Positions 1-39,823 of a stretch of 64,000 nucleotides of DNA are shown in pieces. Position 1 is the first letter of the stretch, and each line of letters opens with the position of its first letter. Position numbers and translations under genes: made by a program. Below the pieces are notes generated by a model. It had not been told where the DNA came from, made no database searches, and was given only the letters and a program-made list of their open reading frames with translations. The DNA comes from Promethearchaeota archaeon (GTDB lineage Archaea > Asgardarchaeota > Thorarchaeia > Thorarchaeales > Thorarchaeaceae): positions 1-64,000 of the forward strand of contig WJMJ01000131.1 of assembly GCA_014728035.1 (NCBI GenBank), read 5' to 3'.

Positions 1-110
1 AAACATACTGTCCAAACCGTCGATTGTAAAACACAGCCACATAACTCAAGAGGTTTCTCAATCGACATCTTGTGGAATGTTTTGCGTAATCTCGGTAAGA
101 GAGAAACATG

Positions 111-232
111 GAAAGAAAAGGAGTGCGAAAAGCGGTTAACGTTCTTCGGTTTGTTAATGTTAAACTAATGAGCGTAGATACAGCGGTGTATAACCACGGG
201 TCCTGTTTCCTCAAATTCCTTGTTACCAAGAT
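111..232 (-). repeat. Diverged direct-repeat copy of the actin 3' end, 3' UTR and terminator (relic/att-like)
   Basis: 158-221 matches 972-1035 at 54/64 nt and translates on the - strand as KEFEETGPVVIHRCI versus actin [15 protein letters not shown]. 111-147 (aaagaaaaggag..gaaaagcg-gttaa-cgttcttc) matches the actin terminator at 930-965. Confidence 0.9.
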
Positions 233-295
233 ACTCTCCTGAATCTCAAGAGAGATATAAGGAAATGCACATACTAATGAGTGAGGCCAATCTTC

Positions 296-526
296 ATGGG
301 AAATAGACTGATCGTTACAGACCCAGAGGTCATGATGGGAAAACCAGTGATTACCGGAACACGAATCACAGTTGAGATGATCTTGGACAAATTGGCAGCA
401 GGAGAAACCATCGACCAGATTCTAGAGGATTATCCTCAGTTGACCCGTGAATCGATTCTCGCAGCACTGTCCTTCGCGGCTGATGCCATGAAGACAATCA
501 CTGCATATCCGACTGAGGCGTCCTAG
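296..526 (+). CDS. DUF433 family putative antitoxin
   Basis: IVTDPEVMMGKPVITGTRITVEMILDKLAAGETIDQILEDYPQLT matches the DUF433 signature. An alternative GTG start lies at 281. Confidence 0.9.
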   Translation: MGNRLIVTDPEVMMGKPVITGTRITVEMILDKLAAGETIDQILEDYPQLTRESILAALSFAADAMKTITAYPTEAS

Positions 527-528
527 AG

Positions 529-885
529 TTGTGAATACTTGCGGACGAATGTATCGAGCAGAGTATAGTACAGAGTCTCAGAGAAAATGGTTTCAAAGTA
601 GATTACATCCTTGAATCCGCACCAGGATCTACAGACTCGACTGTACTCTCAATGGCCGAGTCTTCCCGCTCTATCTTGATGACTGCAGACAAGGACTTCG
701 GTGAATTGGTGTATCGTCAAGGGAAAGCTCATCATGGAATAATCCTGGTTAGACTGCATGGAGTTCCTAGAGAAAACAAAGTAGCAATACTAACTACAGT
801 GTTGAAAGAGCACGAAGGTAAGTTGGTAGGAGCTTTCACTGTTGTTGAACCAAATCAGGTCAGAATCAGTAGACCATCTGCATGA
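529..885 (+). pseudogene. DUF5615 PIN-like toxin with disrupted start (TTG-TGA-ATA-CTT-GCG-GAC-GAA)
   Basis: The frame of ORF 652-885 extends upstream as ILADECIEQSIVQSLRENGFKV..., the typical DUF5615 N-terminus, and continues to ILMTADKDFGELVY...HHGIILVRL. There is an in-frame TGA at 532-534. Confidence 0.7.
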
Positions 886-929
886 TAACATAGAGTTCAC
901 GGGATATCTTACACTCTAAGCGAGTTGAG

Positions 930-965
930 AAAAGAAAAGGAGAAGAAGAGCGGAAGTCGCTCTTC
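930..965 (-). terminator. Hairpin plus pyrimidine/U tract terminator of actin
   Basis: GAAGAGCG-5nt-CGCTCTTC stem (945-965) followed on the - strand by TTCTCCTTTTCTTTT. Confidence 0.7.
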
Positions 966-987: not shown

Positions 988-2157
988 TTAGATACACCGG
1001 TGTATTACTTCCGGTCCTGCTTCCTCGAATTCTTTCCTTGAGACCCACATTTACCAGGCTGCAACAGGAATTGCTGCAACATTCTGGAAGGTCTTCAAGG
1101 ACGCAAGAATTGAGCCACCGATCCAGACGGAGTATTGGCGCTCAGGAGGAGCAATGATACGGACCTCGATGTTCTCTGGGACGAGTTCGGAAATCTCTTT
1201 GTGGAGACGTTCCTTGAGTCCTGGGAACATGGTGGAACCGCCGGAGAGTACGATGTTAGCGTACAGGTCACGTCGCAAGTCAACGTCACAAGACTTGATA
1301 GCCTCGACAATGTGTTCGTCAAGAGGAATGGAGTCAAGTCCGATAGCGCTTGGGTTAAAGAACAGTTCAGGGGCCTGGAATCGCTCAGCACCTACAGTGA
1401 TAACCTCACCGTCGGGGAGCATGTATGGTTTATCCACACCAGCTTTGTCAGCAACGGAGCGTTCACGCTCGGGGTCAAGGGCAATGTAACATAATTTCTC
1501 CTTGATATCTCTGACAATTTCTTTCTCAGCACCGCTTACGAATGCATAACCTCTCTGACGGAGAAGTCTGCGCAAGTATTCGGTGATGTCTCGACCAGCC
1601 AAGTCAATACGTTTGATTGCGTGGTTGATTGAGAAACCTTCGTATACAGGAACGATGTGAGTAACACCGTCACCAGAGTCGATAACCAGACCAGTGGTTC
1701 TTCCGGACGCGTAGAGTGACAGAACAGCCTGTGTAGCCACATAGACTGCAGGGACGCCAAAGCTGTCAAACATGACAGAGGCCATACGTTCTCTGTTCTC
1801 TCGTGGGTTGAAAGGAGCTTCAGTCAGAAGGACTGGATTCTCACTAGGGTCAACTTTGAGGTCATTATAGAACGTGTATGACCAGATTTTTTCAATTGCA
1901 TCCCAGTCATCAACGACACCGTGTGTAATAGGATAGACTAGTCGAAGAACACCACGGAGGTTAATTGCCTCCTCACCAATGTAATAGTCACGTGTGTAGT
2001 GATCGACGTCAGTCATAATAGACTCATAACGTGGATAACCAATGAGTGTTGGCCATACACTGCGTGGTTGGTCCTCGCCTGCATATCCGTTTTTGCTCAA
2101 ACCAGTGCCATTATCAATGACAACGGGTTTGGCACCAAGAAATTCATCTTCAGCCAT
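988..2157 (-). CDS. Asgard actin (lokiactin-type); exon 1 2157-1082, exon 2 1051-988; 379 aa if spliced
   Basis: Motifs [58 protein letters not shown] and [13 protein letters not shown]. The conserved C-terminus [20 protein letters not shown] lies in frame after the TAA at 1051-1053. Confidence 0.95.
1052..1081 (-). other. Putative 30-nt bulge-helix-bulge (tRNA-endonuclease-type) pre-mRNA intron
   Basis: RNA reads CCAG-AA^U-GUUGCAGCA-AUUCC-UGUUGCAGC-CUGG-UA^A: a 4-bp central helix, two 3-nt bulges and a 9-bp intron stem, plus exon-exon pairing. Excision gives TTC CAG AAA ATG TGG (FQKMW). Confidence 0.85.
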
Positions 2158-38866: not shown

Positions 38867-39823
38867 CTAGTCATGGTTATGCTCGTGCTCATGGGCTTGT
38901 TCAGCAGATGCGGAGAGAGCTTCGTAGAAAGTGTCAGATAGGTCTTCTTCTTCGGGGAATTCAGTATCAAAATCAGCGTTCACTCTGTCACGGAACCGTT
39001 TGATTTGCATTGTAACGACATAGATTAGAGCAGCAATTATTCCAGCGATAGCGCTTGGAGATGCTTGTATTGTTAACGATGCAAAGAGCCCTACAACTTC
39101 CGAAACCAGTGCAAAGAAGAACACAGTGACCATAACACCACGTACTGAACGCATGACCTCATTCGAGGCAGCCGCTGGTGCAACCATAATGGCATAAACC
39201 AAAATAGCCCCGACTGCTTTTGTTGCAAAAGCAATCGCTAAAGCTGAAGTGATGAGCATAAGATAATGATATGCTCGGGCATTCAGCCCATGTGCGATAG
39301 AACCTTCCATATCAACACTGACATAGACATATTCCTTGTTGAAAAGTAATGCGATCAATACTAGGATAATTGCTGTGCCACCCAGTAATACGACATCCAA
39401 GTTATCCAGTAGAAGAATATCACCAACAAGATATCCCCAAACCTGAGGCACCTGCGTTGGAGGAATATAGTGTAATAAAAAGACTGCAATACTCATGGAT
39501 AGAGCAAAAGAAACCCCAACTGCAACCTCCATCTTTTGAGAGATGCCGCTTTCGCCAGCATAGCCAGTGACTACCGCGACTAACACACTGAATATAAGAG
39601 ATCCCAGAACGGGATCAAACCAAGGCAAGATGCCAGAATATTGTAAGAACATACCAAGCGCAGCGCCGCCTAATGCAGCATGAGCTACACCAGCGGTCAT
39701 AAAGGACAGGCCTCGAAACACTAGAAATGTTCCACTTGTCGATGCTACAACTGCAATAAGAATAGAGGCAATGAGAGCCCTTTGAAAAAAAGGAATAGCA
39801 AATAATTGTATTAGATCATTCAT
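38867..39823 (-). CDS. znuB: Zn/Mn ABC transporter permease (ZnuB-like)
   Basis: FFQRALIA, GLSFMTAGVAHAALGG, YLVGDIL, VGAILV..PAAA and a His-rich tail. Confidence 0.9.
   Translation of the reverse strand: MNDLIQLFAIPFFQRALIASILIAVVASTSGTFLVFRGLSFMTAGVAHAALGGAALGMFLQYSGILPWFDPVLGSLIFSVLVAVVTGYAGESGISQKMEVAVGVSFALSMSIAVFLLHYIPPTQVPQVWGYLVGDILLLDNLDVVLLGGTAIILVLIALLFNKEYVYVSVDMEGSIAHGLNARAYHYLMLITSALAIAFATKAVGAILVYAIMVAPAAASNEVMRSVRGVMVTVFFFALVSEVVGLFASLTIQASPSAIAGIIAALIYVVTMQIKRFRDRVNADFDTEFPEEEDLSDTFYEALSASAEQAHEHEHNHD

What the first reader, a model, noticed from the sequence alone, without database searches (positions are those of the whole stretch)
988..1083. The stop codon is itself the 3' splice bulge: a possible splicing-controlled switch for actin
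Seen in sequence: the intron length is a multiple of 3, but its last two nucleotides plus the first exon-2 nucleotide form UAA, which is also the 3' bulge. Unspliced mRNA would give a 368-aa actin missing the last 21 residues; splicing destroys the stop. Exon 2 also begins A-AUG, so reinitiation could yield a separate 20-aa tail peptide. Established: the actin C-terminal helices are part of subdomain 1 and of the profilin-binding surface, and eukaryotic HAC1/XBP1 are regulated by endonuclease cleavage plus tRNA-ligase joining. Inference: actin output could be coupled to EndA/RtcB activity, a conceptual parallel to unconventional splicing in eukaryotes.
Basis: inference. Interest (0 to 1): 0.8.

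Follow-up and report, generated by a model that had tools for sequence, protein, structure and literature searches.

The report
Stop-carrying tRNA-type mini-intron in Asgard actin
The only conventional actin gene of this Thorarchaeota (Asgard) archaeon is interrupted 21 codons before its end by a 30-base tRNA-type intron whose 3' cut site is also an in-frame stop codon. That stop looks like a general fail-safe of such mini-introns, not a proven actin-specific switch.

Summary
On the minus strand, the actin ORF (2157..1054) stops at UAA 1053-1051, and the missing C-terminus ([20 protein letters not shown]) follows at once.

[quoted passage not shown] Cutting after the second base of each bulge gives ...TFQ-K-MWVS..., exactly what about 68 intronless orthologs in the family encode.

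Six of about 75 actin genes in the family carry this intron. Compensatory changes support both helices. Exon 2 is under purifying selection. The genome encodes two EndA paralogs and RtcB.

All six orthologous introns keep an in-frame stop, in three forms: UAA or UGA in the bulge, or UGA in the central helix. Mini-introns that I checked in EF-1alpha (two sites), ahcY and rpoA' also carry a stop in the frame in use (5 of 5 introns, against 2 of 10 other frames).

So the stop is probably selected, but as a generic safeguard against translating unspliced mRNA, as in ciliate 3n introns. No RNA data exist, so regulated splicing is untested.

A sharp recombination breakpoint lies about 47 nt upstream of the intron.

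This scan has noted actin BHB introns, and the same "switch" idea, on other Asgard genomes before.

The parts
1082..2157 (-). Actin exon 1: ATG 2157-2155, ends ...UUC CAG AA at 1082
   Evidence: ORF list. Pfam Actin E 1.4e-121. 99% identical to the intronless same-genus ortholog.
1052..1081 (-). 30-nt BHB mini-intron: 1 nt + 23-nt hairpin + 4 nt complementary to exon 1 + 2 nt
   Evidence: Fold. Removal restores QKMW as in intronless orthologs. Covariation.
1081..1083 (-). 5' bulge AAU; inferred cut between 1082 and 1081
   Evidence: Fold. The cleavage rule is inferred from the BHB model and the restored K codon.
1084..1087 (-). Central 4-bp helix, exon-1 strand CCAG
   Evidence: Pairs with 1057-1054. 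Two of 4 pairs show compensatory change (CCAG/CUGG to UCAA/UUGA in G023).
1054..1057 (-). Central 4-bp helix, intron strand CUGG
1058..1080 (-). Inner intron hairpin: 9 bp, 5-nt loop
   Evidence: 96% of cells paired across 6 genomes. Four of 9 pairs change on both sides.
1051..1053 (-). 3' bulge UAA, which is also the in-frame stop of the unspliced mRNA; inferred cut between 1052 and 1051
   Evidence: Orthologs have UAA x4, UGA x1 and AAA x1; the AAA allele has UGA in the helix just upstream.
988..1051 (-). Actin exon 2: A + AUG...AUC (20 codons) + UAA 990-988
   Evidence: Translation. The protein is identical in 5 of 6 intron-bearing genomes despite 5-15 nucleotide differences.
1089..1093 (-). 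Outer helix, exon-1 strand GACCU, pairing with GGGUC 1046-1042
   Evidence: Fold. 93% paired but almost invariant because it is coding.
991..1129 (-). Mosaic patch around the intron: last ~47 nt of exon 1 plus exon 2
   Evidence: Against same-genus G001: 21 differences in 109 nt here, versus 45 in 1027 nt upstream (Fisher 1.6e-7). The nearest relative of the patch is the intron-bearing G015 allele.
110..228 (-). Decayed second copy of the actin 3' end (exon-2 part + 3' UTR), beyond a DUF433/DUF5615 gene pair. Not part of the intron.
   Evidence: Alignment. Pfam. The same layout is present in G001.

Best explanation
This is a 30-nt bulge-helix-bulge mini-intron in the actin pre-mRNA.

Inferred mechanism: the tRNA-splicing endonuclease cuts in the two bulges, at 1082|1081 and 1052|1051. 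This genome has two EndA paralogs, which fits the broad-specificity (alpha-beta)2 type. RtcB then joins the exons, giving an mRNA for a normal 379-aa actin.

Splicing is obligatory for function and most probably constitutive.

The in-frame stop is real and probably maintained by selection, but as a generic fail-safe. The intron length is 3n, so an unspliced message without a stop would yield full-length actin with a 10-residue insertion in subdomain 1. The stop makes ribosomes terminate instead.

The intron belongs to a lineage-wide family of look-alike mini-introns. Their shape is 1+23/24+4+2 nt, often with UGCAGC/GUUGCA arms. They also sit in EF-1alpha, ahcY and rpoA', and they move between lineages by short-patch recombination.

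Shown: anatomy, exact restoration of the coding sequence, covariation, stop conservation, presence of the enzymes, and the mosaic.

Inferred: the cleavage sites, that splicing happens, that it is constitutive, and the fail-safe role.
For: Structure and exact restoration of TFQKMWVS.

Covariation: 88.7% of cells paired against 36-49% in the slid controls; 6 pairs change on both sides; 0 of 500 shuffles reach the score.

Distribution: 6 of about 75 actin genes of the family carry the intron, always 30 nt at the same site. None was seen among the best 150 matches elsewhere in the phylum.

Exon 2 protein is unchanged despite 5-15 nt differences, which indicates purifying selection and therefore translation in frame.

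This is the only conventional actin in the genome; the second match is 38% identical.

Two EndA-family genes and one RtcB are present.

Stop codon: 6 of 6 actin alleles keep one, in three different forms.

Independent mini-introns that I verified all carry a stop in the used frame:
- EF-1alpha site A (G001, G079, G023): UGA in the loop.
- EF-1alpha site B (G094): the 5' bulge UAA is the stop.
- ahcY: UAG in the central helix.
- rpoA': UAA in the loop.

By frame: 5 of 5 introns have a stop in the real frame, against 2 of 10 other frames (one-sided Fisher 0.007). For the three independent 3n introns it is 3 of 3 against 0 of 6 (0.012).

No actin or EF-1alpha match that is 30 nt longer lacks a stop.

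The intron-coded peptide is not conserved ([10 protein letters not shown] versus NAVWGFPAAW versus KAAPISVAAW). This argues against a function for the truncated product's tail.

Ciliate tiny 3n introns show the same enrichment of in-frame stops (PMC5014332).
Against: There is no RNA-level evidence of splicing or of its completeness.

The samples are small and partly non-independent: six related actin alleles. ahcY and rpoA' came to me from notes that may have been prompted by their stops.

A stop in 10 random codons has a chance of roughly 0.38, so conservation among close alleles alone is weak.

The 3' side of the BHB is relaxed: a 7-nt loop, with an outer helix made of invariant coding sequence. 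Cleavage there is therefore assumed.

Archaea have no known NMD, so the benefit of a premature stop rests only on avoiding an aberrant protein.

The truncated actin itself could be harmful or could have a function.
Confidence: 0.75

Rival explanations
1. Splicing of the actin intron is regulated, and the stop in the 3' bulge turns intron retention into an off-state or an altered state. That state would be a truncated 368-aa actin, possibly plus a 20-aa tail peptide. Actin output would then be tuned by EndA/RtcB activity or by a factor that masks the BHB.
For: The stop is kept in all six orthologous introns. That includes one allele where the bulge lost it and the adjacent helix gained UGA, together with compensatory exon changes. 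Unspliced mRNA is translatable in frame up to the stop. The enrichment of stops in the used frame shows that selection sees translation of unspliced RNA, so some unspliced RNA must exist.
Against: No expression data exist. The same feature occurs in unrelated housekeeping genes, so it is not actin-specific. EndA and RtcB are needed for tRNA and rRNA maturation generally, so they make a poor specific signal. The intron-coded tail is not conserved. Most species of the family, including the sister species, manage with no intron. The intron is gained or lost by recombination on short time scales, which fits a selfish or neutral element better than a regulatory device. The AUG is the conserved Met of KMW.
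Confidence: 0.1
2. The stop has no selective meaning. It is there by descent from one ancestral intron and because BHB bulges tend to be A-rich. The intron is simply spliced.
For: The six actin introns are homologous. A-rich bulges are common in this genome's introns: AAA, AAG, AAU, UGA. The chance of a stop in 10 codons is about 0.38.
Against: The stop persists through three different sequence states. Five of 5 independent introns have it in the used frame, against 2 of 10 other frames. Bulge triplets without a stop work in the same genome (AAA, AAG; CCA, AUA and AGA in tRNA introns as delimited). The structure therefore does not demand UAA.
Confidence: 0.12
3. No splicing occurs. Actin is made as two polypeptides (368 aa plus a 20-aa peptide by termination-reinitiation at UAA-AUG) that assemble. 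Alternatively, the ribosome bypasses or reads through the 30 nt.
For: The stop and AUG are adjacent in 5 of 6 alleles.
Against: The insert has a covarying RNA structure typical of EndA substrates, not coding conservation. The BHB cut rule restores the exact ortholog sequence, including the K codon. There are no matching take-off and landing codons for a hop. In G023 the stop and AUG are separated by AAA. Read-through would add 10 residues that no ortholog has.
Confidence: 0.02
4. Artefact or decaying gene: an assembly error or a pseudogenised actin.
For: The genome is a fragmented MAG with 8.5% estimated contamination. The locus lies near a contig end.
Against: The same 30-nt insert is in six genomes of six genera and one further metagenome contig. 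Substitutions covary. Exon 2 is intact and conserved. No other conventional actin is present.
Confidence: 0.01

Closest known systems
BHB intron of the cbf5 (pseudouridine synthase) pre-mRNA in Crenarchaeota (Watanabe 2002; Yokobori 2009, PMC2738675)
   Same: A short (16-44 bp) BHB-type intron inside a protein-coding gene, too small to encode anything. It is patchily gained and lost among relatives, is linked to a hetero-oligomeric EndA, and some copies are 3n in length.
   Different: Different gene, phylum and site. Splicing of cbf5 was shown experimentally; here it is inferred. The stop-in-bulge feature and the stop's conservation were not discussed for cbf5.
BHB intron in the 5' UTR of Haloferax volcanii HVO_1309 mRNA (Schwarz 2020, PMC7714728)
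   Same: An mRNA substrate of the tRNA-splicing endonuclease. Removal appears to matter for expression.
   Different: It lies in the untranslated leader, so there are no reading-frame consequences.
Non-canonical BHB introns of archaeal tRNA and rRNA genes
   Same: Same motif, same enzymes, and the same stereotyped 30/31-nt architecture as the mini-introns of this lineage.
   Different: The host is a translated mRNA, so ribosomes can compete with folding and an in-frame stop becomes meaningful.
HAC1/XBP1 unconventional cytoplasmic splicing
   Same: Non-spliceosomal cleavage of an mRNA at stem-loops, followed by ligation with a tRNA ligase (RtcB for XBP1). Splicing changes the C-terminus of the protein.
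   Different: The nuclease there is IRE1, a stress-activated sensor, and regulation is the defining feature. Here the nuclease would be housekeeping EndA, and no regulation is shown. This is an analogy, not membership.
Tiny 3n spliceosomal introns of ciliates enriched in in-frame stops (PMC5014332 and the Paramecium work it cites)
   Same: Very short introns. Those with length divisible by three carry in-frame stops, so that retained introns end translation.
   Different: The ciliate introns are spliceosomal, with NMD as the downstream surveillance. Archaea have neither.

Membership tests
Archaeal BHB (EndA/RtcB-spliced) intron | [quoted passage not shown] | tested here: met
   The 5' bulge AAU, the helix CCAG/CUGG and the 3' bulge UAA are in the right register. 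The 3' bulge is closed outward only by one possible U-A pair and then a 5-bp exon helix. That makes it a relaxed (hBH-like) variant.
Archaeal BHB (EndA/RtcB-spliced) intron | Cutting after the 2nd base of each bulge and joining restores the functional sequence | tested here: met
   The join gives CAG-AAA-AUG = QKM. All intronless orthologs read TFQKMWVS. The spliced protein is 99% identical to G001 actin over 379 aa.
Archaeal BHB (EndA/RtcB-spliced) intron | Helices maintained by compensatory substitutions | tested here: met
   Central helix: 2 of 4 pairs. Hairpin: 4 of 9 pairs with changes on both sides. 0 of 500 shuffles reach the observed score. Only six sequences were available.
Archaeal BHB (EndA/RtcB-spliced) intron | Splicing endonuclease and RtcB ligase encoded by the organism | tested here: met
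   Two PF01974 genes (E 6e-30 and 3e-21) and one PF01139 gene (E 1e-177) in the own genome. The (alpha-beta)2 assembly itself was not tested.
Archaeal BHB (EndA/RtcB-spliced) intron | Spliced junction and excised (circular) intron observed in RNA | not testable with these tools
   No RNA run holds the stretch.
Regulated unconventional mRNA splicing (HAC1/XBP1 type switch) | Dedicated, signal-activated endonuclease | not tested
   No IRE1-like candidate was sought. The only nuclease implied by the motif is housekeeping EndA.
Regulated unconventional mRNA splicing (HAC1/XBP1 type switch) | Spliced/unspliced ratio changes with conditions, and both forms have distinct outputs | not testable with these tools
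   No transcriptomes are available. The tail of the unspliced product is not conserved.
Regulated unconventional mRNA splicing (HAC1/XBP1 type switch) | Feature specific to the regulated gene and conserved with it | tested here: not met
   About 68 of 74 actin genes of the family lack the intron, including the sister species. The same stop-bearing mini-introns occur in EF-1alpha, ahcY and rpoA'.
Fail-safe in-frame stop of short 3n introns (as in ciliates) | In-frame stops enriched in the frame in use, relative to other frames or to expectation | tested here: inconclusive
   5 of 5 against 2 of 10 (p 0.007). For 3n introns only, 3 of 3 against 0 of 6 (p 0.012). The direction is right, but the sample is very small and partly ascertained through the stops.

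The most novel reading that the evidence does not exclude
The stop-bearing mini-introns in actin, EF-1alpha, RNA polymerase A' and AhcY form a post-transcriptional checkpoint. Their in-frame stops are selected so that the output of core cytoskeletal, translation, transcription and methyl-cycle genes depends on the flux through EndA/RtcB. Intron retention would be condition-dependent. That would make this an archaeal forerunner of regulated intron retention and of HAC1/XBP1-type control, in the lineage closest to eukaryotes.
Probability: 0.1. Interest if true: 0.8.

Novelty: new member of a known kind. Interest (0 to 1): 0.5.

Why it matters
In the papers I could search, tRNA-type splicing of an archaeal coding sequence is documented only for cbf5, plus one 5' UTR intron.

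Here the sole actin gene of an Asgard archaeon needs such splicing, and so do EF-1alpha, RNA polymerase and AhcY genes in the same lineage. Protein-coding genes of the closest prokaryotic relatives of eukaryotes would therefore be routinely interrupted.

The consistent in-frame stops suggest that selection already deals with translation of unspliced mRNA in a cell without a nucleus. That is the problem often invoked for the origin of the nucleus and of NMD.

The recombination breakpoint next to the intron also points to how such introns spread or are erased.

All of this is testable with one metatranscriptome or an in vitro EndA assay.

Tried and rejected
- RNA evidence: the look-up of sequencing runs listed no RNA holder.
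- Laying the two DNA runs showed only a ~94%-identical intronless relative and other lineages. Nothing about this organism's splicing came out of it.
- blastn-short of the intron against the whole genome found no second copy.
- A genome-wide scan for the bare BHB shape was pure noise: 572 hits against 610 in the reversed control.
- An ORF-restoring variant of that scan gave 430 candidates, mostly false. Two that I looked at, window 39793-39823 and C28:17457-17488, are continuous or overlapping ORFs, not introns.
- The metagenome pattern scan gave 45 loci, of which only one is actin. Its intron is identical to that of G015.
- ARAGORN finds only 35 tRNAs and 8 introns in this genome, with uncertain borders. 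A proper baseline of bulge sequences could therefore not be built.
- The short actin matches in G074 and G077 are contig ends, not other introns.
- No co-conversion signal appears around the EF-1alpha intron of G001, because that gene is 15.5% diverged throughout.
- Ribosomal hopping, read-through and split-protein readings were considered and set aside; see the rival explanations.
- Paper searches found no report of an Asgard actin intron.

Full report
**Observation**

On the minus strand, an ORF runs from ATG 2157 to a TAA at 1053-1051 (368 aa). It is an actin (PF00022, E 1.4e-121). Its last ten residues, [10 protein letters not shown], have no counterpart in actins.

Directly after the stop, AUG 1050-1048 opens 20 codons, [20 protein letters not shown], with stop at 990-988. 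These are the canonical actin C-terminus.

The RNA around the junction folds far better than shuffles (-32.4 kcal/mol, z -4.97) into these elements:
- an exon-exon outer helix;
- a 4-bp helix CCAG(1087-1084)/CUGG(1057-1054);
- a 3-nt bulge AAU (1083-1081);
- a 23-nt hairpin (1080-1058);
- on the other strand, UAA (1053-1051).

Cutting after the second base of each bulge removes 1081..1052 (30 nt).

**Is it an intron?**

In 41 related genomes the orthologous actin is 87-99% identical within the order. Most copies are uninterrupted and read ...SLKTFQKMWVS... That is exactly the predicted spliced product, including the lysine codon rebuilt from two exon-1 bases and one exon-2 base.

The same-genus genome G001 has an intronless actin that is 99% identical.

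A pattern scan of all 86 genomes of the family, and a phylum-wide scan of 400 genomes with the intronless protein, gave the same picture. Six actin genes carry the insert (own genome, G009, G013, G015, G020, G023). It is always 30 nt, always at this site, and each has one internal stop. No other such case was among the 150 best matches. One further metagenome contig repeats the G015 allele.

Across the six sequences, 96% of cells in the central helix and in the hairpin are paired. Two of four central pairs change on both sides (CCAG/CUGG becomes UCAA/UUGA in G023). So do four of nine hairpin pairs, and G020 has an almost entirely different hairpin. No shuffle reaches the observed score, and slid controls pair at only 36-49%.

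Exon 2 encodes the identical peptide in five of six genomes despite 5-15 nucleotide differences. It is therefore translated in frame with actin.

This is the only conventional actin in the genome. The genome encodes two EndA-family proteins and RtcB. A recent preprint reports that two EndA paralogs, read as an (alpha-beta)2 enzyme, are usual in Asgard genomes.

I put the probability that this is a genuine EndA/RtcB-type intron above 0.9. Direct RNA proof is missing: no RNA run was listed.

**The stop codon**

All six orthologous introns keep an in-frame stop, but not the same one:
- UAA in the 3' bulge, four alleles;
- UGA in the bulge (G013);
- in G023 the bulge is AAA, and the stop is UGA inside the central helix, made possible by the compensatory UCAA/UUGA change.

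The intron-coded peptide itself is not conserved.

To see whether this is special to actin, I checked other interrupted genes.
- In this genome, ahcY (C103, about 93.77 kb) carries a 31-nt insert with helix CUAG/CUAG and bulges UGA and AAA. Its removal gives GHPSEVMDLSF.
- rpoA' (C25, about 320-350) carries a 31-nt insert with GUAG/CUAU and bulges AAA and AAG. Its removal gives LIVEDLWELLQ.
- In relatives, EF-1alpha carries 30-nt inserts at two sites. Site A follows GHKDFI in G001, G079 and G023, with UGA in the hairpin loop. Site B lies in DKY|YYT in G094. There the 5' bulge UAA is itself the in-frame stop.

All of these share the layout 1 + 23/24 + 4 + 2 nt. Several share the arm sequence UGCAGC/GUUGCA.

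Counting stops by frame:
- Every allele (12 of 12) has a stop in the frame in use, and so does every independent intron (5 of 5).
- Only 2 of 10 alternative frames of the five representative introns have one (one-sided Fisher 0.007).
- For the three independent 3n introns the count is 3 of 3 against 0 of 6 (0.012).
- No actin or EF-1alpha match that is 30 nt longer lacks a stop.

The numbers are small, and the ahcY and rpoA' cases reached me through earlier notes. Even so, the direction is clear: the in-frame stop is a property of this class of mRNA mini-introns.

The best-documented parallel is the enrichment of in-frame stops in the tiny 3n introns of ciliates. That enrichment is interpreted as ensuring termination on unspliced messages (PMC5014332).

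**Mechanism proposed**

The pre-mRNA folds into the BHB. EndA cuts both bulges, RtcB ligates the exons, and a 379-aa actin is made.

Ribosomes that reach an unspliced copy stop at UAA and release a 368-aa product lacking Lys359 to Ile379. From general knowledge of actin structure, those residues form the C-terminal helices packed into subdomain 1, so the fragment is likely unstable. This last point is inference.

Without the stop, a 3n intron would give full-length actin with ten extra residues, a potentially filament-poisoning species. The stop avoids that.

This is a fail-safe, not a switch. A switch would need condition-dependent splicing. There is no evidence for that, and there are several arguments against it:
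- the enzymes are housekeeping;
- most species of the family, including the sister species, have no intron;
- the intron turns over quickly.

**Turnover**

Between G000 and intronless G001, actin DNA differs at 45 of 1027 positions upstream. It differs at 21 of 109 positions in the last 47 nt of exon 1 plus exon 2 (Fisher 1.6e-7).

In that patch, G000 is closest to the intron-bearing alleles of G015 (0.10) and G013 (0.14). It is no closer to G001 than to random family members. Similarity to G001 resumes in the 3' UTR.

A weaker signal of the same kind separates G023 from its congener G049 (p 5e-4).

So presence or absence of the intron was exchanged by short-patch recombination with co-conversion of flanking exon sequence. 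Gain in G000 is the simpler reading, but replacement in G001 is not excluded. EF-1alpha of the two species is 15.5% diverged, so the 4.4% in the actin 5' part is itself unusually low.

Conversely, G001 has the EF-1alpha intron that G000 lacks.

**Comparison with what is known**

The papers I could search document BHB introns in mRNA only for cbf5 of Crenarchaeota (PMC2738675) and a Haloferax 5' UTR (PMC7714728). I found nothing on Asgard actin.

Within this scan, however, BHB mini-introns in actin have been noted on several other Asgard genomes (Odin-, Hermod-, Loki- and Thor-type). The same "splicing switch" idea was raised on the G015-like allele. Those are unchecked notes. My own survey independently confirms the Thorarchaeota cases.

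**Verdict**

- The intron is real with high probability.
- Conservation of the stop is real and probably selected, but as a general safeguard shared with other genes.
- The actin-specific regulatory switch remains an untested, low-probability idea.

Noticed in passing
window 110-930 (relic 110-228; DUF433 281-526 +; DUF5615 652-885 +): A DUF433/DUF5615 gene pair (toxin-antitoxin-like) lies between the actin terminator and a decayed second copy of the actin 3' end plus 3' UTR. The same arrangement exists in same-genus G001 (window 112-450 matches L046 3632-3973 at 77%). It therefore predates the split of the two species and is independent of the intron.
   Followed up: partly
G000 contig C103, about 93,770-93,810 (+), 29.8 kb beyond the window end: ahcY (SAH hydrolase) is interrupted by a 31-nt BHB mini-intron: helix CUAG/CUAG, bulges UGA and AAA, in-frame UAG. 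Removal restores GHPSEVMDLSF.
   Followed up: yes
G000 contig C25, about 320-350 (+) (L125): The RNA polymerase A' gene is interrupted by a 31-nt BHB mini-intron: helix GUAG/CUAU, bulges AAA and AAG, in-frame UAA in the loop. Removal restores ...LIVEDLWELLQ...
   Followed up: yes
L149 (G001), L154 (G079), L156 (G023), L155 (G094): EF-1alpha genes of relatives carry 30-nt stop-bearing mini-introns at two different sites. At the G094 site the 5' bulge UAA is the in-frame stop. G015 and G053 EF-1alpha genes are split into frame-shifted pieces that may hold further introns.
   Followed up: partly
L001 vs L003/L046 (actin) and L140 vs L149 (EF-1alpha): Actin DNA of G000 and G001 differs by only 4.4% over its first 1027 nt, while EF-1alpha differs by 15.5% and the flanking genes by more. 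Either synonymous sites of actin are unusually constrained, or the gene body was exchanged recently between the two lineages.
   Followed up: no
G000 C151:65109-65363 and C51:13682-13942: There are two separate genes with the tRNA-intron endonuclease catalytic domain (197- and 222-aa frames). This fits a heterotetrameric broad-specificity EndA. A contaminant origin for one of them (8.5% contamination) was not excluded.
   Followed up: no
G077:C12 end (L075): The contig of one relative ends 2 nt after codon 362 of actin, almost exactly at the intron site. This could reflect an assembly break caused by with/without-intron strain heterogeneity.
   Followed up: no
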